Positions 51,204 to 59,499 of a stretch of 64,000 nt of DNA are shown piece after piece. Within the stretch, counting starts at the first letter, position 1. Each line of letters opens with the position of its first letter. Source of the stretch: a virus (taxonomy: Duplodnaviria; Caudoviricetes); the IMG/VR virus record IMGVR_UViG_2974719393_000001, positions 1 to 64,000 of that record; one strand, given 5' to 3'. The position numbers were made by a program, and so were the translations under genes. The notes under the pieces were generated by a model. It saw only the letters and a list, made by a program, of their open reading frames with translations. It was not told the origin of the DNA and made no database searches.

Positions 51204-51229
51204 AAGGGGCCATTTGGCCCCTTATTTTT
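51204..51229. terminator. bidirectional terminator AAGGGGCC-ATTT-GGCCCCTT
   Basis: Between convergent genes. Confidence 0.7.
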
Positions 51230-51515
51230 ATGCTGTCGGAATAGGATAACTATCAATAATAAACTGAATAGTCCCATCACTAGCGCCTGCCGGCATACGT
51301 ACTGTGCCTACCTCATTCCATTGGTCATCCGAAAACAACTCAATAGAATAATCACCCTCACCAAGAGTGAAGCTGTAAGCCCCACCCGCAGCAAGAGTAA
51401 TCGTAGCCTCAGCTGTAGCCAACACATCACCCGAGCCTTTTAAGCATTTGATGCGAACCTTGGAAGCCAAGGCTGTACCAATCGGGTTTGTTAAGTTACC
51501 TGAGATATTAGCCAT
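51228..51515 (-). CDS. stand-alone tail-fibre N-terminal domain protein
   Basis: 'ISGNLTNPIG...GAYSFTLGEGDYSIEL' resembles the N-terminus of the adjacent fibre ('VLGVLQTPMS...GNYDFNLAFGTHELYV'). Confidence 0.65.
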   Translation of the reverse strand: MANISGNLTNPIGTALASKVRIKCLKGSGDVLATAEATITLAAGGAYSFTLGEGDYSIELFSDDQWNEVGTVRMPAGASDGTIQFIIDSYPIPTA

Positions 51516-51524
51516 GGGGCCTCC

Positions 51525-54302
51525 TTAACATAAGTCATTACCATTACGAAATAAAATCGCAGAAATAGTATTATTTGAATAAGGGGATGCTATACACATA
51601 CCACCATTTGCTGCACCATTCAAATCATCTAAATGCCCATAAATATTTATACTTCCTGTGGTGTTTGCGGGTATATTTATTGCAACTTGATGAATACCAG
51701 TAACCACGCATTGGTGTGTATTACCGCTTTGGGAACATGCCCAAATTTTAGCAGTATTAACAGCAGTGAATTGTGTACTAGTCGTCACCAGTTTAGCTGA
51801 TGCTTGGGTTGGGTTTCCCGCTTCACCTGTACTTGTAGCCCACACACTAATTAAGGCACTTAATTGAAGGGTGCGTGGATATGGCATAGAGCCGGATACA
51901 CAAATCACTGCAAATAACGGCGTATTCCCCGTGGAGCCGGATTTTACTTGAGTTGTTGCAGCCTTATTCAAACCAGATGTAACATCCCCAATAATACACT
52001 GAGCATATATGGAACCACAAAAACAACCTGTGGCAGCACTGATAGTGCCACGTACAATAGCATTGTTGAACTCAGCATTACCACTACAATCAATTGCCCA
52101 ACCAGTTGAACCAACAACGTAGTTACCGGATTTGATTTGAATTTGACTTTGACAAGGGTAAATGCGGTTTTCTGTCCAAGCACAAGCAGCAGTACCTTCG
52201 TTTACTGCACAAGTTTTTGCTGCGTCACCGCAAGATATACCACAGTTGCAGGCACTCACAGCTTTATTACATGCATTGGTTTCAGCTGTTAATGCGCGGT
52301 CGTACGACTTGCCCATTAGTTCTTGAACGGAAGGGGCGTTACCCATCTCCCATAATCCTGGTTTGTAGAAATACTGTATAGGGCCATTAACATCAGCAGA
52401 GTAATACCAAAAAACCCGTTGGGTAACGTTAGTAACAGTACCACTAGGTGGCATAACCCAATCTACACCAGATGCTACTTTAGTGCCTGTGTCGGGGTCA
52501 TAAACACCGGTAACACCTGTTTCTCCGGCAGTATACCCACGAGCATGCACTACACCAACGAGCAGATACCACTTATTTAATTGAGGCAAATCCCCAGACC
52601 AAAAGTAAGGGTTATCTGACGTTTGTGTACCATCTGCACTGTTCATACCCACATATCTAGTAGTACCAAAAAATATTTGCCCATCTAATGTGGTTTGACA
52701 CGCCCAAACAGCATGTAAGTAAGACTTGCTCACTGAGAAGTTTTGCGTAGCGCAGTACGTCCAACCCCCATCAGGAGTGTCTGCAGTATTACTATTTGTT
52801 TTGGTACGCCAAACTAAGCCACCTTGTCCAAAAGGACCACCAGAAGTTGTACTCACATAGTTTTCATCGGAGTCTCCGTTTCTAATGAAAGTATTACAAG
52901 CATTATTATCAGAATCCCCTCGATACCCTACAACCCATAAGTTTGTATTAAGTAAGTTAGATACTGCACTGTCTGCAGTTAACTGGGCATTAGTGATTTC
53001 AGGCGGTACTGCACTAGCATCACAAAAAACCAAGCAAGTAGTATTAATACACCCAGTAATATAAGCATTTGAAGCAATAAGCGCACCGTTATCTGTTACA
53101 CGAAAAGGAGCCGTCGGAATTCCTGTAGAATTGCGAGCATCCCAGTAACCTGCCCAAAATCGATAACCTTTATTTAGGTTAGAGGTTTCAGACCCAGAAT
53201 CATCCCCATTCATCCCTGCTGTTGTTATACCGGTTCCAGCTTTAATGGTTGTATTTGAAACTAACTTATCTCCTGTCAAACAACGAATATATGCTGCATC
53301 CATATATACACAATTACCAACTACTTGGAATGGGTAGCTTTGAGTGTTTGGATTACCGTTATGCATGATAATTTTGTCAGCTTGCATCAAGATACAGGAT
53401 TCTTGTACCGCAGCTTCCGTACAAGCAGTGGCCACGAGAGCAATACTTGCACACGCATCACCTGCTTGAGTAACAATTTCATAACCAGCTTGTTGTAAAC
53501 CCTGGCCATTATCAATTACGTTCATACAGGTATAGACTGCAGCATCACAGGCTTGAACCATATTCACCAAGTTCGAACACACAATGCCTGCACAAGTGTC
53601 AGAATATGCTTCCGCAGTCTGAAGTACTTGGGCATCTCCAGCATCCATGTCAGTACATAGACAGGCAATCGCAATATCATTCGAAGTAGTGTACGCAGTT
53701 AGCGTAGAGCAGATGTCTACTAACGCTGTATTTAATGAAGTGGTACAGCAAGTAATCTCCGCACCAGTCGCATCAGCATAAGCTTGACTTTCTAAGAGAA
53801 CAGCCGCGTCACCGGCCACAATAGTGTCGGTTAACTCAGCAGAACAAGCCTGTAATCGGTCATTGGTATAGGTAGTCATCGCGGTACACACACCAGTGTC
53901 ACCTTGTACTACCTGTTGTGATAGTTGAACAATACAAGTGTCCCATGCAGTTTCGAGCGCTGAAATACAGCCGCCAAAGTCATCACGGATACACTGTTCA
54001 TTTTGATTCGGTAACGGAGTTGTGTAATACAACAGTTCCGAAATTGTATATGACGAGTCAGTCAGAGAATCGTTGGCTACCGTTGTACCGATATGCTCGA
54101 ATGTATCTGTGAACATCACATATAGTTCATGAGTACCGAACGCGAGATTAAAGTCATAATTACCTTGGTTGTCGGTAAAATAAATGGCCTCGGAAGTCGT
54201 TAAGACATTACCGAAGCCACTTGAGGTTACAACTTTAATCGGGACGTTCTGTACCACTTGACTCATAGGTGTCTGCAAGACACCCAAAACTCGAATGGAC
54301 AT
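51525..54302 (-). CDS. Cys-rich tail fibre / host specificity protein
   Basis: Tail-fibre N domain, coiled coil, J-like 'PFQVVGN.VYMDAAYI' and 'GWAID.SGNAEFNNAIVRGTI' segments; about 41 Cys. Confidence 0.8.
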   Translation of the reverse strand: MSIRVLGVLQTPMSQVVQNVPIKVVTSSGFGNVLTTSEAIYFTDNQGNYDFNLAFGTHELYVMFTDTFEHIGTTVANDSLTDSSYTISELLYYTTPLPNQNEQCIRDDFGGCISALETAWDTCIVQLSQQVVQGDTGVCTAMTTYTNDRLQACSAELTDTIVAGDAAVLLESQAYADATGAEITCCTTSLNTALVDICSTLTAYTTSNDIAIACLCTDMDAGDAQVLQTAEAYSDTCAGIVCSNLVNMVQACDAAVYTCMNVIDNGQGLQQAGYEIVTQAGDACASIALVATACTEAAVQESCILMQADKIIMHNGNPNTQSYPFQVVGNCVYMDAAYIRCLTGDKLVSNTTIKAGTGITTAGMNGDDSGSETSNLNKGYRFWAGYWDARNSTGIPTAPFRVTDNGALIASNAYITGCINTTCLVFCDASAVPPEITNAQLTADSAVSNLLNTNLWVVGYRGDSDNNACNTFIRNGDSDENYVSTTSGGPFGQGGLVWRTKTNSNTADTPDGGWTYCATQNFSVSKSYLHAVWACQTTLDGQIFFGTTRYVGMNSADGTQTSDNPYFWSGDLPQLNKWYLLVGVVHARGYTAGETGVTGVYDPDTGTKVASGVDWVMPPSGTVTNVTQRVFWYYSADVNGPIQYFYKPGLWEMGNAPSVQELMGKSYDRALTAETNACNKAVSACNCGISCGDAAKTCAVNEGTAACAWTENRIYPCQSQIQIKSGNYVVGSTGWAIDCSGNAEFNNAIVRGTISAATGCFCGSIYAQCIIGDVTSGLNKAATTQVKSGSTGNTPLFAVICVSGSMPYPRTLQLSALISVWATSTGEAGNPTQASAKLVTTSTQFTAVNTAKIWACSQSGNTHQCVVTGIHQVAINIPANTTGSINIYGHLDDLNGAANGGMCIASPYSNNTISAILFRNGNDLC

Positions 54303-54311
54303 GAAACCCCC

Positions 54312-55046
54312 TTATAGGCGTGGATTAACACGCATGCCTTCAAAGCCTTTACGAGTAATAGTACTTAATTTCTTGTAATACTTCACGCCGGATGTAGACG
54401 CTAGGTATGCCACTTGCGGCTTACCCATTGCTGCCGCAATGTGTAGCGCCGCCGTGTCACAAGAAACAACCATATCTGCGATTTGGACGTAACGGATAAA
54501 TACCGGTTCTGCGATTTCTTTAATCTGTTGACACACTTCCGTGTCGAAACCAAAGTCAACATCTGTACCTAGAATAAAGATTGCGTATTCCTTGTGGTAT
54601 TTTTCAACCACTTCCAACACTTCCTTACGTGTCATGGAACGGGAGTCTGCTTCTCCACCTGAGCCATGAGGCTGTAACATAAGGATTGGTCGGTCCGAGT
54701 GTATAGACGCAGGAATGTGTCGTAAGTCGGGGCTGTACGGTAGGTTATCGCCTTTAGGTACGGTCAGACCTAGTTCCGTTAGAAATGCTTCGACGAGGTT
54801 GAGCTTTCCAGCGCGGTAGTCCAGATTCCAGTATGGTTCCGGTTTTACAACTTCAAAGCCTTCAAGCTTATCTTGTAAATTCGGAGTACCAAGGGCAAGG
54901 ACATTTAAACCAGAGCCTGTATAGGCGAATTCCCAACCACCGGTTAGGACAATCAATTCATGCTTCTTGTTCAACTCTTTTAACGCAGGGATAGCGCAGA
55001 GTACCCGGCCTAAGCCACCGTCAATAATCACAGCTAGTTTTTTCAT
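54312..55046 (-). CDS. GT-B glycosyltransferase, GT9/ADP-heptosyltransferase-like
   Basis: 'IDGGLGRVLCAIPALKEL', 'ILMLQPHGS', 'ADMVVSCDTAALHIAAAMGKPQVA'; start ATG 55046. Confidence 0.8.
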   Translation of the reverse strand: MKKLAVIIDGGLGRVLCAIPALKELNKKHELIVLTGGWEFAYTGSGLNVLALGTPNLQDKLEGFEVVKPEPYWNLDYRAGKLNLVEAFLTELGLTVPKGDNLPYSPDLRHIPASIHSDRPILMLQPHGSGGEADSRSMTRKEVLEVVEKYHKEYAIFILGTDVDFGFDTEVCQQIKEIAEPVFIRYVQIADMVVSCDTAALHIAAAMGKPQVAYLASTSGVKYYKKLSTITRKGFEGMRVNPRL

Positions 55047-55047
55047 A

Positions 55048-55266
55048 TCAGTCTCGTGTACGTTGTAATTGTTGTTGTTCGACATATGCGCGGATATACG
55101 CAACGTCATTTGCCATTAATTCTAGCTTATCTACACGGTCATCCAAGTCATTAATTGACTGAGAGTTGACAGCTGTCTCGGTATGGGTAGTAAAAATACC
55201 GATTCCGCCTGCAGTTAATAAGCCAGCCAGAGCAGTAGTTACAATGGTACTTACTGGTAGGTTCAT
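55048..55266 (-). CDS. small membrane-anchored coiled-coil protein (lysis-associated?)
   Basis: N-terminal TM plus coiled coil; coupled to the holin-like gene. Confidence 0.55.
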   Translation of the reverse strand: MNLPVSTIVTTALAGLLTAGGIGIFTTHTETAVNSQSINDLDDRVDKLELMANDVAYIRAYVEQQQLQRTRD

Positions 55267-55756: not shown

Positions 55757-56143
55757 TTACCCCCAGAGATTAGCAAGTTGCTTAATCCACACAGTAGTGA
55801 GGATAGCACGGTATTTGAAAGTAAACTGATGTTCCATTTTGTGACGGGACACCCATTTACGATAAATATTGTCAATGCACATACCTTTATGCTCCAGAAC
55901 CATGTGAGGTTCCCAAGTAGATTTGACTCGAACGTAGTGGAATTTTATCTGACGAGTCAGAATCATCCAATACAGTTTTAGCCAACTACCTTCAGCAATA
56001 AGCCAGTATGCAATCCACAGGGAATAGTCCTCGCAGTCACCATTGAGATGTCCCTTTGCGTCAGGTTCCATAAGGGTCCAACGGTCTGTATGCCTATCAG
56101 ATTTGTAATGGAATCGACTGTTTAAATAATTCAAATTTTTCAT
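55757..56143 (-). CDS. transglutaminase-like cysteine proteinase domain protein
   Basis: 'F.YKSD...D.W', 'GDCEDY', 'HMVL', 'IDN' (Cys-His-Asp triad). Confidence 0.7.
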   Translation of the reverse strand: MKNLNYLNSRFHYKSDRHTDRWTLMEPDAKGHLNGDCEDYSLWIAYWLIAEGSWLKLYWMILTRQIKFHYVRVKSTWEPHMVLEHKGMCIDNIYRKWVSRHKMEHQFTFKYRAILTTVWIKQLANLWG

Positions 56144-56248: not shown

Positions 56249-58789
56249 TTACGCCAGATTTGGTAAAGCCCTCCAGTGAGAATAAGTTGTCTTTGCATTT
56301 ACAGGTATAAAACGACCTGCTGGAACAGGTGTTGTAATTGTCAAGTCATTGCCTGATTTGGATGTCAACTGTGTCCAATGCCATGTACCGTTATCCATCT
56401 CAAAACCACATATACTACCAAACCCGGTTCCTAACCACCCTCCTGGATTGGTTACTATAACTACAGAATCCCCTGCGTTTGCTTGCGCACTTACAATAGA
56501 GGTGTCCTCATCAAAGAGACAAATATACCCAATAGGGACTCCTATAGCTGGAGTAGGGTCATCCCAACGGGAACCTGCATTAAAGTAGCCTTGGTCTGGT
56601 AAAGTATCTCTGAAAATCCTCTCTCTGTAGCGTTCAGGGGATGAAACTTCTCGCTCAAGGATAGCATGGTCTGTTACTGCAAAGATGCCGGGCGTTTCGC
56701 TTTCTAATGCGTAATCATTGGTATTACCTTTGAATTCATTACCTTGAATAATACCATTTTTCTGAGTGATAGTAGTAGATAATCCAAACGTACAGCCTGA
56801 GATTGTGTTACCTCTGACACTACAACGAGAACCTCGTATACGTATGCCCTGCTCTGTTATTACACCTGAAACAAAATCAGGTTCTGTTAACGCACTCGGG
56901 TTCGTTATTGGCGTGTACGTCCTGATTACGTTACCGTTAAGAGAGGTATCTTCTGCTGAGCACGTAATACCATACGGAGCACAGTTTAAAAGCAGATTAT
57001 TAGCACAAATATTATCAGAATTAGCCACCGTAAAACTAGGGGTATTTGTTGAGCTTAGAATTATACCTCCACGATTAGTTGCATTAATTACTGTATTACC
57101 TGTAATATTGCAAGCCCCGTGATAGATTGCTTGAATACCCCATGATACGTTTTTTACTAGGTTATTAGCAATCACCCCATGGCCGTCATAATTGCCTTCA
57201 CCCCAAGCAATACCACCACAATTTGCAGCGTTTGAAATTACATCTCCGTATACCGTATTACTAGTGATAATACAGTGACCTGTTGCTTGAATAGCCAAAG
57301 AATTGATATCTCCATTGCAACCAGAAACAATATTACCGGAGATGATACTTTGGTAACAACGCCCATTGAAGTTAATACCCGTATATTTACAATCATGGAC
57401 TTGATTATTAACAACTTTAAAGTACCCATCGCCACTTTCCGCGCAAATACCAATCATGCTCATATCATACACTTGGTTATCATGGACATTCACATTAATA
57501 ACATTTCTAAAAAGAATACCACGACCTTTAGCTAAGCCGAAATTCTGATAGACACCTGTACCTTGTATTACAATGCCATATACTTCAAAATTACGAAGTT
57601 CTGTACCTACAGCGGGTGTTGCAATACTCTCCTGGCTAGAGAAGTGCAACGGAATATGTGCATTAGCTTCTGTCTTAATTATACTTTTATACCCATCTCC
57701 GGAAATTGTCACATTGTTCCCATGAACCCACAGACAGGCTTTATTTTCATCTTGTGTTGTGACTTTGTAGTACACATCCGCAGAGGGTATGTACACTCGA
57801 CCGCCACCTTGTGCTATTACAAAATCAATGGCTGCTTGAATAGCAGCAGTATCATCTACAATGCCATCTCCTACAGCCCCAAAATCTTTTATATTCACAA
57901 AATCTGCAAAGTGATTAGCCAAAGTTCTAGCTGTAAGTCTGTCCGTCGGTGTAACCAAAGAATTAGAGGCAACAATGGCTCCCCAATCATTACCATCCCA
58001 ATACCTTAATTCACCTTGATTACCACCAAAATCCTGCCAATAAGTAGCACCAATTTGTAACGGCTGCCCTGTGTTATCAAGTAAAGGAGGAGAAGTTTTA
58101 GCACCGAGATATTTACTTTCAAAATTTGTGAGTACGACATCAGCCGCTGAAGCTGATAAAGCTGAAGAGTCAGCAAAAGCGGAAGCAGAGGCCGCACTCG
58201 TACTGGCATTCGTTTCAGATGTACCTGCAGCAGCTTCACTTGCAGCCGCAGCAAGTTCTGAATTACCAGCATTAATCTCTGACAAAGCAGCAGCCGTTTC
58301 ACTGTTTGCAGCATTATTCGCAGAGGTATTAGCGTTAGCTTCGGAGGTTGATGCATTTGACTCGGAGGTCGCGGCATTTGCTTCCGATGTAGCAGCAGCA
58401 ACTTGAGAAGCTTGAGCCGCATCACGTGCATCTTGTGAATCACTCATTGCAGTAAGAGCGGAGTCACGGGCATCCTGTGCTTGTTGTGCTGCCTGCACTA
58501 CAGTATCGGCATCCGACACAACCCATACACCAGGGTCAGCATCGTAGTACTGCAAGTTGCCGTCAGTTTCATTTAGGTAAAAGTTACCGGCTACAAGAGG
58601 TGCGCCATCACGACCTTCAGTTGGGGCATTTTCAAATGCACCCAAGTAAAGGTTCATAACGTCTACACCACCAGCGGCAGCAATAACTTCTTCGATATTC
58701 TCAGCGACTAGTTCCACCGCATCATATGCAGTGTTATCGAACTTCTCGACTGGAGTCGTATTATTGTGGCTCTGTGGTACGCGAGGCAT
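56249..58789 (-). CDS. tailspike with right-handed beta-helix (pectate-lyase-like) depolymerase domain
   Basis: Ala/Ser-rich heptad linker, 'VNIKDFGAVGDGIVDDTAAIQAAI', repeated I.GN.I/V beta-helix rungs; SD before ATG 58789. Confidence 0.88.
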   Translation of the reverse strand: MPRVPQSHNNTTPVEKFDNTAYDAVELVAENIEEVIAAAGGVDVMNLYLGAFENAPTEGRDGAPLVAGNFYLNETDGNLQYYDADPGVWVVSDADTVVQAAQQAQDARDSALTAMSDSQDARDAAQASQVAAATSEANAATSESNASTSEANANTSANNAANSETAAALSEINAGNSELAAAASEAAAGTSETNASTSAASASAFADSSALSASAADVVLTNFESKYLGAKTSPPLLDNTGQPLQIGATYWQDFGGNQGELRYWDGNDWGAIVASNSLVTPTDRLTARTLANHFADFVNIKDFGAVGDGIVDDTAAIQAAIDFVIAQGGGRVYIPSADVYYKVTTQDENKACLWVHGNNVTISGDGYKSIIKTEANAHIPLHFSSQESIATPAVGTELRNFEVYGIVIQGTGVYQNFGLAKGRGILFRNVINVNVHDNQVYDMSMIGICAESGDGYFKVVNNQVHDCKYTGINFNGRCYQSIISGNIVSGCNGDINSLAIQATGHCIITSNTVYGDVISNAANCGGIAWGEGNYDGHGVIANNLVKNVSWGIQAIYHGACNITGNTVINATNRGGIILSSTNTPSFTVANSDNICANNLLLNCAPYGITCSAEDTSLNGNVIRTYTPITNPSALTEPDFVSGVITEQGIRIRGSRCSVRGNTISGCTFGLSTTITQKNGIIQGNEFKGNTNDYALESETPGIFAVTDHAILEREVSSPERYRERIFRDTLPDQGYFNAGSRWDDPTPAIGVPIGYICLFDEDTSIVSAQANAGDSVVIVTNPGGWLGTGFGSICGFEMDNGTWHWTQLTSKSGNDLTITTPVPAGRFIPVNAKTTYSHWRALPNLA
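58150..58500 (-). repeat. imperfect 7-aa (A-A-x-S-E-x-N) coding repeats in the tailspike linker
   Basis: AATSEAN-AATSESN-ASTSEAN-ANTSANN-AANSETA... Confidence 0.6.
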
Positions 58790-58800
58790 GAGTAGTCTCC

Positions 58801-59499
58801 TTAAACCCAACCATTAGAATGGAACGCATTGTTCGCTTCTGGTGAAATATTATTGACCGTAATGTATTTTTGTAGGAACAACAACTGTTCCTCATACATC
58901 ATCTTTTGGTTCATCGAAATAGCCTGAGCTTCTGCACTTTGGTTTGGCATGTATGCACGCCATGTAACGTAACAAAGCAAAGCAGATAGCGCCACCTCAG
59001 GTAACTCCAATTCAACTGACGACGGGTCAGACACATCACTAAGTTTAGGGTGGTCAGCACGGTACTGCACAAATGTGCTATTACCTGTTACTGGTGTCGG
59101 AATCTGTACGCTCAGTGGAGTCGGAGTGTAGTAAGAATTTGACGCACTATTGTCATTTATTGGAACCAAACAGCCTGCTTCATCATAGAAAGCTGTGATG
59201 GCCAAAATGTCATCAGTGAATTCATTACCATCATCGTCATCGATATACTTCTGCTCAGTGGATTCCGTGTTTGAGTACGCGTGCTTCGAGTTCAAGTAGT
59301 AAATAACTGTACCGTCATCTTGGTCAAGAATCAGTTCACTATCCTTGAGTGGGAATCGGGTGTAAATATCACGCAGACCAAGCTGCGTGAAGTTAGCAAA
59401 TTTTTGATAGGAATCAGTTTTAATCATTCCATTAACTACGTCACCGGTATTTGCCAGTGGGCCTAAAGCCAAGTAGTTAAATACATCCAGTAAAGTCAT
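58801..59499 (-). CDS. virion structural/adaptor protein (N4 gp67-like)
   Basis: 'LGLRDIYTRFPLK', 'VQYRADH', C-terminal 'F.SNGWV'; downstream of terminase. Confidence 0.75.
   Translation of the reverse strand: MTLLDVFNYLALGPLANTGDVVNGMIKTDSYQKFANFTQLGLRDIYTRFPLKDSELILDQDDGTVIYYLNSKHAYSNTESTEQKYIDDDDGNEFTDDILAITAFYDEAGCLVPINDNSASNSYYTPTPLSVQIPTPVTGNSTFVQYRADHPKLSDVSDPSSVELELPEVALSALLCYVTWRAYMPNQSAEAQAISMNQKMMYEEQLLFLQKYITVNNISPEANNAFHSNGWV

What the first reader, a model, noticed from the sequence alone, without database searches (positions are those of the whole stretch)
51525..55046. Glycosyltransferase directly upstream of a hyper-cysteinylated tail fibre: candidate phage S-glycosylation system
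Seen: a GT9/heptosyltransferase-like gene ends 9 nt before the tail-fibre start. By manual count the fibre has about 41 Cys in 925 aa (about 4.4%). None fall in the first ~100-aa anchor domain, and almost all are isolated rather than in CxxC metal motifs. They recur every 4-14 residues through the coiled-coil segments (e.g. ETNACNKAVSACNCGISCGDAAKTCAVNEGTAAC). In J-like motifs they occupy positions that, from recall, are usually polar S/T/K/N (GWAIDCSGNAEF, AATGCFCGSIYAQCIIGD, GNCVYMDAAYIRC). Known: GT-B heptosyltransferases (AAH/TibC) hyper-glycosylate adhesins encoded next to them; Cys S-glycosylation occurs in glycocins; phage virions assemble in the reducing cytoplasm, where many disulfides are unlikely. 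Inference: the GT decorates surface Cys of the fibre, possibly using host ADP-heptose, forming a glycan coat for stability, shielding or host range.
Basis: partly seen in the sequence, partly recalled or inferred. Interest (0 to 1): 0.88.

Follow-up and report, generated by a model that had tools for sequence, protein, structure and literature searches.

The report
Phage glycosyltransferase paired with cysteine-studded fibre
A sea-water Vibrio-type phage makes a small heptose-transferase-like enzyme together with a tail fibre that is abnormally rich in cysteine, a pairing that recurs in many unrelated phages, so the enzyme probably sugar-coats the fibre, possibly through a sugar-to-sulfur bond that has never been shown on a virus.

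Summary
On the minus strand a 244-aa GT9-like gene (54312-55046) ends 9 nt before a 925-aa fibre gene (51525-54302). The fibre has 41 Cys (4.43%), against 0.79% in 41 other ORFs of this complete 78-kb N4-like phage.

The enzyme model is confident and is closest to WaaC, WaaF and TibC. It keeps the donor-site motif, but its family has Arg where WaaC appears to have Asp13.

The pairing is not local chance:
- The same enzyme family lies beside very Cys-rich fibre-like proteins of at least four folds in Vibrio N4-like phages, Aeromonas phage HJ05, cyanomyophages and 90 of 140 IMG/VR loci.
- Fibre homologues in phages without the enzyme are Cys-poor (0.1-1.2%).
- Positions that are Cys here are mostly polar in those homologues.

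About one sixth of assessable enzyme loci have no Cys-rich neighbour. No experiment bears on the chemistry.

Best reading: the enzyme decorates the phage's own fibre, most likely with heptose on Cys thiols (about 0.4 for the S-link).

This scan noted the same pairing before on other DNA. I found no paper describing it. Cultured relatives (Vibrio phages K479 and D497, Aeromonas HJ05) make it directly testable.

The parts
54312..55046 (-). GT9-fold (heptosyltransferase-like) glycosyltransferase, 244 aa. The open frame extends upstream to an ATG at 55109, but that extension is not shared by homologues.
   Evidence: Pfam PF01075 scores 25.2 bits against a cut-off of 22. phrog_8954 matches at E 5.9e-22. 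The AF2 model has pLDDT 89.6. Foldseek top hits are WaaC, WaaF and TibC at E 4e-9 to 4e-7. Thirteen close homologues start at MKKLAV or an equivalent.
54303..54311 (-). 9-nt spacer (gggggtttc) between the GT stop codon TAA and the fibre ATG; Shine-Dalgarno-like.
   Evidence: Read directly from the sequence. No promoter-like or terminator-like site lies in the spacer.
51525..54302 (-). Tail fibre, 925 aa, 41 Cys. It has a Cys-free N-terminal anchor (residues 1-103, phage_tail_N-like), a Cys-rich shaft with a Phage_Tail_Tip domain, a Cys-poor insert at about 452-672, and a Cys-rich J-like C-terminal part.
   Evidence: Cys counts. Pfam PF09327 scores 47 bits over residues 271-350. Matches to phrog_496, phrog_2636 and phrog_2589, all tail or tail-fibre families. 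Alignment A6.
51228..51515 (-). 95-aa ORF directly after the fibre; resembles the fibre's own N-terminal domain. It is the last gene of the operon.
   Evidence: PF08400 matches at E 9.5e-4, below its cut-off. phrog_2636 matches at E 1.3e-7. A 94-102-aa ORF sits at the same place in GT-less relatives L181, L182 and phage 1.224.A.
51204..51223 (.). G+C-rich hairpin with T-runs on both strands, between the fibre operon and the convergent PhoH gene; a likely bidirectional terminator.
   Evidence: Consensus scan: 8 pairs, 6 of them G-C, found on both strands.

Best explanation
The 244-aa protein is a phage-specific, shortened GT-B enzyme of the heptosyltransferase (GT9) type. It is transcribed and translated together with the tail fibre late in infection. 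It modifies the phage's own fibre in the cytoplasm before or during assembly. The most likely chemistry is transfer of heptose from the host's ADP-heptose pool onto the thiols of the many exposed cysteines. That would give S-linked sugars, a glycan coat that also caps reactive thiols.

Shown: the gene pairing, the fold, the donor-site motif, and the link between enzyme presence and Cys-rich fibres. Inferred: that the fibre is the acceptor, that the sugar is heptose, and that Cys is the attachment atom.
For: 1. Operon. The GT stop and fibre start are 9 nt apart with an SD-like run and no terminator-like site between them.
2. Fold. The model is confident (pLDDT 89.6). Best PDB matches are WaaC, WaaF and the protein heptosyltransferase TibC. 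The donor motif D197-S-x-x-x-H202 aligns with WaaF and WaaC 'D(S/T)GxxH'; the match is significant for WaaF at E 1.4e-4.
3. Sugar. In S-CAM1, P-SSM2 and S-SSM7 the homologue is followed by a carbamoyltransferase. Genes annotated as heptose-7-P kinase/adenylyltransferase and phosphoheptose isomerase lie nearby.
4. Recurrent pairing. A hyper-Cys protein lies within 1-4 genes of the GT in HJ05 (23/559), S-CAM1 (36/311, 31/278, 25/299), P-SSM2 (36/356, 36/355) and S-SSM7 (29/261, 28/264, 30/262). In 140 IMG/VR loci with distinct GTs, ORFs with at least 6% Cys make up 20-46% of genes at positions -1 to -4. At downstream positions +1 to +8 they make up 1-3%. 90 of 140 loci have an ORF with at least 4% Cys within 4 genes.
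5. Partners of different folds: Phage_Tail_Tip (here), Gly_rich_2, RCC1 and Lcl_C.
6. Reverse test in 50,697 phage records. Cys-rich cyanophage proteins hit 21, 11 and 8 records. All belong to phages that carry the GT; one record is a second contig of a GT-bearing single-cell virus.
7. Same fibre family without the GT is Cys-poor: D63 2/1122, 1.004.O 9/1018, 2.044.O 1/686, the N4-like 1.224.A 7/575, L181 1/870, L182 1/753. The GT profile was absent from the 5 whole records searched (L182's was not searched) and present in 5 of 5 controls. Nine close homologues have 4.4-7.3% Cys and four distant ones 0.1-0.8%.
8. The Cys do not look structural. There is no CxxC. Residues aligned to them in three Cys-poor homologues are polar in 55 of 84 cells and Cys in 1. 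Single unpaired gains and losses separate the window from an 83%-identical fibre, for example C139 to R and C284 to S.
9. The family has Arg14 (at least 90% of 58 sequences) where a weak alignment places WaaC Gly12-Asp13. TibC's equivalent base is Asp110 (PMC4358343, passages). This is compatible with a different nucleophile.
Against: - No biochemical or mass-spectrometric data exist for any member.
- Known S-glycosyltransferases of glycocins are, from recall, GT2/GT-A enzymes, not GT9.
- 21 of 126 assessable GT loci have no ORF with at least 4% Cys within about 8 kb. The clades nearest the window's clade are mostly of that kind.
- A core of Cys is invariant among the six aligned Cys-rich fibres. 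Overall, window Cys are kept in 113 of 170 cells (66%) against 54% identity, so some may be structural.
- 22 of 84 aligned cells in Cys-poor homologues are hydrophobic or Ala.
- The cyanophage partners (8-12% Cys, CCC runs) could be disulfide- or metal-rich knots.
- No sequon was found around the Cys.
- The Asp-to-Arg alignment is not statistically significant.
- All Cys-rich members of this fibre family are close relatives, so the within-family contrast is probably one event.
- The many IMG/VR loci share synteny and are not independent.
Confidence: 0.4

Rival explanations
1. The enzyme glycosylates the fibre, but on Ser, Thr or another oxygen or nitrogen atom, as TibC does on TibA. The cysteines serve another purpose in the same proteins, such as disulfides formed after release into oxic sea water, or metal binding.
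For: TibC, a protein O-heptosyltransferase, is among the best fold matches. The fibre is also rich in Ser and Thr. A core of Cys is invariant among Cys-rich homologues. Disulfide networks in phage tails are documented (titles and abstracts of PMC10811340 and PMC13576161 in the listing).
Against: This reading does not explain why Cys-richness tracks the enzyme across partners of four folds and is absent from GT-less homologues. The family lacks the Asp base used by O-heptosyltransferases, on a weak alignment. Single unpaired Cys gains and losses occur between close relatives.
Confidence: 0.2
2. The enzyme acts on the host envelope (LPS core or another glycan) during infection, for example to block superinfection or to stop released virions from binding debris. 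It merely sits in the variable fibre module.
For: The best fold matches are the LPS heptosyltransferases WaaC and WaaF. The P-SSM2 gene clusters that contain the cyanophage homologue were interpreted as LPS genes altering the host surface (PMC1079782, passages).
Against: The enzyme is in a late structural operon of a lytic N4-like phage, 9 nt from the fibre start. It lacks WaaC's Asp13 on a weak alignment. This reading gives no reason for the link with Cys-rich neighbours. From recall, marine picocyanobacterial LPS lacks heptose, so a WaaC-type acceptor would be missing there.
Confidence: 0.12
3. There is no functional link. Cys-rich fibres are an adaptation of some marine phages (oxidative cross-linking, metal capture), and the GT gene travels with them by shared ancestry of a gene block.
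For: Many of the 140 loci share synteny and belong to a few clades. 21 of 126 assessable GT loci lack a Cys-rich neighbour. The within-family contrast for this fibre is probably a single event.
Against: The pairing holds across podo- and myoviruses, different gene orders (GT before the fibre here; after it in HJ05 and cyanophages) and non-homologous partner folds. In 6 GT-less loci, 0 of 40 ORFs reach 4% Cys.
Confidence: 0.13
4. The GT-like protein is a non-catalytic assembly factor or chaperone for Cys-rich fibres.
For: It is shorter than WaaC (244 against about 320 aa) and lacks the usual catalytic Asp, on a weak alignment.
Against: The donor-site residues D197, S198, H202 and T218 are conserved in at least 90% of 58 diverse sequences. 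Cyanophage versions are clustered with nucleotide-heptose synthesis and carbamoyltransferase genes.
Confidence: 0.05

Closest known systems
Bacterial autotransporter heptosyltransferases TibC and AAH with their adhesins TibA and AIDA-I (BAHT family; PDB 4RAP, 4RB4)
   Same: GT-B heptosyltransferase-type catalytic fold (Foldseek E 1.4e-7, TMq 0.67). The enzyme is encoded next to an elongated adhesin-like protein that would be modified at many sites. ADP-heptose is the likely donor.
   Different: 244 aa against about 400 aa. It has no N-terminal beta-barrel, no beta-hairpin thumb and no four-Cys iron finger; the GT has only 3 Cys in the long ORF. TibC's base Asp110 has no counterpart, and the family has Arg14 instead. 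The proposed acceptor atom is S, not O. It is a phage virion protein, not a secreted bacterial adhesin.
LPS heptosyltransferases WaaC (HepI) and WaaF (HepII), CAZy GT9, Pfam PF01075
   Same: Best structural matches (E 4e-9 to 2e-8). Shared donor motif D(S/T)GxxH and the following GxT(S/D). Pfam hit above the cut-off.
   Different: The Pfam match covers only 36 residues. The protein is about 80 residues shorter. Arg stands where WaaC has Asp13, on a weak alignment. Invariant GGxGR and PEPY motifs are specific to the phage family. The gene context is a fibre gene, not an LPS core operon.
Glycocin S-glycosyltransferases (SunS, ThuS, PalS and relatives)
   Same: The only well-documented bacterial enzymes that put a sugar on a Cys sulfur (abstracts of PMC6405829 and PMC12457901 in the listing). 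This is the chemistry proposed here.
   Different: From recall they are GT2/GT-A enzymes that use UDP-hexoses on one or two Cys of small secreted peptides. Here the enzyme is a GT-B/GT9 fold, the substrate would be a large virion protein with tens of Cys, and the sugar would be heptose. No sequence or fold relation was found.
Mycobacteriophage virion glycosylation (Freeman et al. 2023, Cell Host Microbe)
   Same: Phage-encoded glycosyltransferases decorate the phage's own virion proteins.
   Different: I saw this only as a reference entry inside PMC12801897; details are recalled. It concerns O-linked glycans on capsid and tail-tube proteins of actinophages, made by other GT families, with no link to cysteine.
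'LPS biosynthesis' gene clusters of cyanomyophage P-SSM2 (Sullivan et al. 2005)
   Same: They contain a homologue of this enzyme (26% identity, E 6e-16) beside heptose-pathway genes.
   Different: The published reading is host LPS alteration (PMC1079782, passages). That paper's text does not contain the word cysteine (0 occurrences). The adjacent proteins with 10% Cys point to a phage protein as the acceptor.

Membership tests
CAZy GT9 / Pfam PF01075 heptosyltransferases | Two-lobed GT-B fold of the WaaC/WaaF type | tested here: met
   AF2 pLDDT 89.6. The Foldseek top 10 are all WaaC, WaaF or TibC chains.
CAZy GT9 / Pfam PF01075 heptosyltransferases | Sequence match to the family profile above the curated cut-off | tested here: met
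   25.2 bits against 22, but only profile positions 179-214 of 247. The same result came from the whole-genome search.
CAZy GT9 / Pfam PF01075 heptosyltransferases | C-lobe donor motif D(S/T)GxxH | tested here: met
   D197, S198 and H202 are conserved in at least 90% of 58 sequences. They align to WaaF 'NDSGLMH' and WaaC 'VDTGLSH'.
CAZy GT9 / Pfam PF01075 heptosyltransferases | N-lobe catalytic Asp (WaaC Asp13; its role is recalled) | tested here: not met
   The family has G13-R14 where WaaC has G12-D13. The HMMER alignment of that segment is below significance, so the residue correspondence is provisional.
CAZy GT9 / Pfam PF01075 heptosyltransferases | ADP-heptose as donor | not testable with these tools
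   Indirect only: the cyanophage homologues are clustered with genes annotated as heptose-7-P kinase/adenylyltransferase and phosphoheptose isomerase.
BAHT family (TibC/AAH) | N-terminal beta-barrel, beta-hairpin thumb and four-Cys iron finger; dodecamer | tested here: not met
   244 aa with 3 Cys in the long ORF. The model has only the two Rossmann-like lobes. Features of TibC are taken from PMC4358343 passages. Oligomeric state was not tested.
BAHT family (TibC/AAH) | Catalytic base Asp110 | tested here: not met
   No conserved Asp in the N-lobe loop; Arg14 instead.
BAHT family (TibC/AAH) | Enzyme gene adjacent to the gene of its adhesin substrate | tested here: met
   9-nt spacing to the fibre gene. 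That the fibre is the substrate is inferred.
Glycocin S-glycosyltransferases | GT-A (GT2) fold | tested here: not met
   The fold is GT-B. That SunS-type enzymes are GT2 is recalled.
Phage J-like / tail-tip fibre proteins (Pfam PF09327) | Profile match above the cut-off | tested here: met
   47.1 bits against 22, residues 271-350. Tail-fibre PHROGs 496, 2636 and 2589 also match.
N4-like phages (Schitoviridae) | Giant virion RNA polymerase gene and N4-type structural genes | tested here: met
   The 3550-aa ORF matches phrog_2206 'virion RNA polymerase' at 956 bits. Portal, major head and terminase families also match. The fibre homologue in phage 1.224.A belongs to a record classified as Schitoviridae.

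The most novel reading that the evidence does not exclude
A widespread phage system in which a GT9-fold enzyme, with Arg in place of the usual Asp base, puts heptose on the sulfur of dozens of cysteines of the phage's own receptor-binding proteins. This would be the first S-glycosylated virion, the first GT-B S-glycosyltransferase and the first sequon-free hyper-S-glycosylation. In that case cysteine has been recruited as a glycan attachment residue across fibres of unrelated folds. In cyanophages the sugar would be made by the phage and further carbamoylated.
Probability: 0.35. Interest if true: 0.9.

Novelty: new variant of a known kind. Interest (0 to 1): 0.78.

Why it matters
Protein S-glycosylation is known from only a handful of small bacterial peptides. 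Glycosylation of phage virions is known from a few actinophages.

If this pairing is what it seems, a large group of marine and freshwater phages chemically coat their host-recognition proteins. That includes abundant cyanophages and N4-like Vibrio phages from oyster farms. A coat of this kind would affect host range, virion stability, resistance to proteases and oxidation, and what receptor-binding predictions from sequence can mean.

It would also reassign the long-standing 'LPS genes' of cyanophages such as P-SSM2 to virion decoration. It would supply a new enzyme type for making hydrolysis-resistant S-linked glycoproteins.

This window adds a simple two-gene version that depends on host ADP-heptose. 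It sits in a phage group with cultured members, so the question can be settled with standard mass spectrometry.

Tried and rejected
- Megablast of the region against 50,697 phage records found nothing.
- AlphaFold on the full fibre as a monomer, with a 9-sequence alignment, gave mean pLDDT 33.3. I could therefore make no statement on exposure, pairing or coiled coils, and I ran no fold search on it.
- A locus scan with the 58-sequence GT alignment was not possible because it had no conserved stretch. Three sub-alignments were used instead.
- A scan with the close GT alignment found only one IMG/VR locus. A scan with the fibre alignment found only three.
- Scans of genome contigs with the nearest GT subgroup gave only partial donor-motif matches in Desulfobacterota-type and archaeal assemblies, not family members. 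The metagenome scan gave mostly contigs too short for context, except L193.
- A search for a sequence motif around the Cys found no sequon. It showed only depletion of Pro, Glu, Lys and Arg and some hydrophobic neighbours.
- tblastn with the HJ05 Cys-rich protein found only itself, so no second within-family contrast was possible.
- Alternative genetic code as the source of the Cys: considered and rejected. Cys are ordinary TGT/TGC codons (34 and 7), and the frame has clear homologues.
- Metal-finger reading: rejected as a general explanation because there is no CxxC.
- Complex prediction was not used, because an enzyme-substrate pair is outside what that test can judge.
- Literature searches for the pairing found no paper describing it. 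The library holds open-access papers and bioRxiv only.


Full report
**What is in the window.** The window is 64 kb of a 78,071-bp virus record rated complete. It is an N4-like phage. A 3550-aa ORF matches the virion RNA polymerase family phrog_2206 at 956 bits, and portal, major head protein and large terminase are of the matching families.

The finding lies in the late structural block on the minus strand. The gene order is: terminase, a 232-aa virion protein, an 853-aa beta-helix tailspike, three small genes, the GT-like gene, the fibre, a 95-aa ORF, and then a hairpin terminator facing a convergent PhoH gene.

**Check of the observation.**
- Fibre ORF: 51525-54302 (-), 925 aa, 41 Cys (4.43%). 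The first Cys is at residue 104. There is no CxxC, three CxC and one CC.
- Background: the 41 other ORFs I tabulated hold 127 Cys in 16,166 residues (0.79%). The binomial tail is 2.8e-18.
- Contrast within the virion: the RNA polymerase has 0 of 3550, the portal 1 of 716 and the major head protein 1 of 400. The fibre is the only one of 49 ORFs of at least 120 aa with 4% Cys or more.
- GT frame: open from 55109, but all 13 close homologues begin at the Met of MKKLAV, which is 55046.
- Junction: the GT stop TAA is followed by gggggtttc and then the fibre ATG.
- The quoted peptides are all there.
- The one descriptive claim I could not verify is that the Cys lie in coiled coils. The AlphaFold monomer of the fibre failed (mean pLDDT 33.3).

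**The enzyme.**
- Sequence: Pfam gives only a short GT9 match (25.2 bits, cut-off 22, 36 residues). PHROGs gives phrog_8954 of unknown function.
- Fold: a model built on 13 sequences is confident (pLDDT 89.6, pTM 0.87). Its best PDB matches are WaaC, WaaF and TibC (E 4e-9 to 4e-7). Other GT-B enzymes follow only from rank 23.
- Family size: a full HMMER search of 1.84 billion representatives found 476 relatives at E up to 0.001, mostly 280-330 aa.
- Conserved residues: in 58 diverse members G10, G11, G13, P71, Y72 and H202 are invariant. R14, P69, E70, Q125, P126, R136, D197, S198 and T218 are kept in at least 90%.
- Donor site: the profile aligns D197...H202 with the donor-site motif of WaaF (E 1.4e-4) and WaaC.
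- Catalytic base: the N-terminal GRVxxxxPAL aligns with WaaC G12-D13-VLHTLPAL, but that segment alone is not significant. If the correspondence holds, the Asp that I recall as WaaC's catalytic base is Arg in the whole phage family. Its TibC equivalent is Asp110 (PMC4358343, passages).
- TibC-specific features are absent: the beta-barrel, the thumb and the four-Cys iron finger.

So this is a GT9-fold enzyme, but not a member of the TibC/AAH family and not a typical WaaC/WaaF.

**Does the enzyme go with cysteine-rich neighbours elsewhere?** tblastn against 50,697 phage records found the enzyme in 53 records:
- 29 N4-like Vibrio phages from sea water and oysters (55% identity);
- Aeromonas phage HJ05 (35%);
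- 23 cyanomyophage or marine single-cell virus records (21-30%).

In every context I opened, a very Cys-rich protein lies within one to four genes:

| Phage | Neighbouring protein(s), Cys / length |
|---|---|
| K479 and D497 | fibre homologues, 39/1643 and 41/1756, Cys clustered in the shaft |
| HJ05 | 23/559, directly upstream, among proteins with 0-1 Cys |
| S-CAM1 | 36/311, 31/278, 25/299 |
| P-SSM2 | 36/356, 36/355 |
| S-SSM7 | 29/261, 28/264, 30/262 |

In the three cyanophages the enzyme gene is followed by a carbamoyltransferase. Genes annotated as heptose-7-phosphate kinase/adenylyltransferase and phosphoheptose isomerase lie nearby. This supports heptose as the sugar. It also fits a phage that must bring its own donor pathway, whereas a Vibrio host makes ADP-heptose for its LPS (recalled).

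Three sub-alignments of the family retrieved IMG/VR loci. After removing loci with identical GT sequences, 140 remained. My own ORF calls are crude (longest non-overlapping ORFs).
- ORFs of at least 120 aa with at least 6% Cys make up 19.5%, 32%, 46% and 21% of genes at positions -1 to -4 upstream of the GT. At positions +1 to +8 downstream they make up 1-3%.
- 90 of 140 loci have an ORF with at least 4% Cys within four genes.
- The 50 without include loci cut near the GT, loci where the Cys-rich genes lie further upstream, and real subgroups with none in about 8 kb.
- On a FastTree of 147 GT sequences, 105 are Cys-positive, 21 Cys-negative and 21 not assessable, with 14 changes of state. The clades nearest the window's clade are mostly Cys-negative.
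- The Cys-rich neighbours fall into 27 BLAST clusters. One has 150 members.
- Their Pfam domains differ. The large family is Gly_rich_2 (24.9 bits for the S-SSM7 protein; weak in HJ05). One is RCC1 repeats and another Lcl_C. The fibre here is Phage_Tail_Tip.
- One 674-aa protein has 69 Cys.

**Reverse test.** The S-SSM7, S-CAM1 and P-SSM2 Cys-rich proteins hit 21, 11 and 8 phage records. All are records, or second contigs of a single-cell virus, of phages that carry the enzyme (against 13). P-SSM4, which lacks the P-SSM2 sugar clusters according to PMC1079782 (passages), is not among the hits. These are only about four or five cyanophage lineages.

- Close homologues: nine in the 5.8-billion-protein collection have 4.4-7.3% Cys and none in their first 100 residues. 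Four distant ones have 0.1-0.8%.
- An IMG/VR contig whose GT is 95% identical has a 760-aa fibre with 58 Cys (7.6%). It includes repeats of the type ACxCGINCGNxAK.
- A metagenome contig shows the same GT-then-fibre order, with 28 Cys in the 540 residues present.
- Homologous fibres in phages without the enzyme are Cys-poor: D63 2/1122, 1.004.O 9/1018, 2.044.O 1/686, the N4-like phage 1.224.A 7/575, the complete N4-like contig behind L181 1/870 with the same synteny, and L182 1/753.
- The family profile found nothing in the five whole records searched for five of these six homologues (L182's record was not searched). It matched five of five positive controls.
- In the six GT-less loci, 0 of 40 ORFs reach 4% Cys.
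- Caveat: all Cys-rich fibres of this family are close relatives and probably form one group. I did not build a fibre tree. This contrast therefore probably counts as one evolutionary event.

**What kind of cysteines are they?**
- In three Cys-poor homologues the residues aligned to the window's Cys are polar in 55 of 84 cells, hydrophobic or Ala in 22, Gly or Pro in 6, and Cys in 1.
- Among five Cys-rich homologues the window's Cys are kept in 113 of 170 cells (66%) against 54% overall identity. Eleven positions are invariant. Some Cys may therefore be structural, but most turn over.
- Against the 83%-identical fibre there are single, unpaired changes, such as C139 to R and C284 to S, plus new Cys in the relative. 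Obligate disulfide pairs would not behave so.
- No sequon emerged around the Cys.

**Reading.** The gene pairing, fold, donor motif, heptose-pathway context and the repeated link with Cys-rich receptor-binding-type proteins of unrelated folds make it likely (about 0.6) that the enzyme acts on these proteins.

Three things point to sulfur as the attachment atom: the shared property of the partners is cysteine, GT-less homologues do without it, and the family may have swapped the Asp base for Arg. Nothing here tests that chemistry, and I put the S-link at about 0.35-0.4. The rivals are given separately with their odds.

**Relation to earlier notes and to print.** This scan had already noted the same pairing on other DNA at least eight times, in T4-like phages of SAR11 and cyanobacteria, jumbo phages and a prophage. 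One note also pointed out Arg in place of the catalytic Asp. None of those notes concerns a sequence like this GT.

My literature searches found no paper on the pairing. The only published reading of the cyanophage homologues' clusters is host LPS alteration.

What this window adds:
- the minimal two-gene form without sugar-synthesis genes;
- the GT-before-fibre order;
- a clean GT-less comparison inside one fibre family;
- cultured relatives in which the question can be settled.

Noticed in passing
window 28420-50075 (-): The virion proteins other than the fibre and tailspike are almost free of cysteine. The virion RNA polymerase has 0/3550, the 422-aa protein 0, the 387-aa protein 0, the major head protein 1/400 and the portal 1/716. 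The tailspike (56249-58810) has 15/853.
   Followed up: partly
window 51228-51515 (-): The 95-aa ORF after the fibre resembles the fibre's own N-terminal anchor domain (phage_tail_N; phrog_2636). A 94-102-aa ORF sits at the same place in GT-less relatives (L181, L182; in 1.224.A it is annotated as a carboxypeptidase-like regulatory domain). Its role is unknown.
   Followed up: partly
window 55757-56143 (-): A 128-aa ORF two genes upstream of the GT has a weak, below-cut-off match to transglutaminase-like cysteine proteinase BTLCP (PF06035, E 0.027). It is also present in L007. An earlier scan note mentions a small cysteine protease beside such GTs.
   Followed up: partly
window fibre residues about 452-672 (about 52287-52949): A stretch of about 220 residues is absent from all aligned relatives (alignment A6). 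It holds only 3 of the 41 Cys, as if a recently acquired Cys-poor domain had been inserted into a Cys-rich fibre.
   Followed up: no
L007:8745-11027: The fibre of the closest IMG/VR relative has 58 Cys in 760 aa. It carries about five tandem units of roughly 18 residues of the type ASTACxCGINCGNxAK.
   Followed up: partly
L004, L005, L006 (S-CAM1, P-SSM2, S-SSM7): In cyanomyophages the GT homologue (370-415 aa, with a C-terminal extension that the Vibrio form lacks) is followed by a carbamoyltransferase. Nearby are ADP-heptose pathway genes and a small cupin annotated as 'cysteine dioxygenase'. Two or three paralogous proteins with 8-12% Cys of the Gly_rich_2 type lie just upstream.
   Followed up: partly
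L119:4110-6134: An IMG/VR ORF of 674 aa has 69 Cys (10.2%) and no Pfam match. It lies about 1 kb upstream of a GT family member.
   Followed up: no
L089-L110, L106-L108, L109/L112/L113, L130/L142, L144/L148: GT subgroups with no Cys-rich ORF within about 8 kb. Several are followed by a conserved ORF of about 330 aa. Their acceptor may differ.
   Followed up: no
window 51204-51223: A perfect 8-bp G+C-rich hairpin flanked by T-rich runs on both strands, between the convergent fibre operon and PhoH; a likely bidirectional terminator.
   Followed up: no
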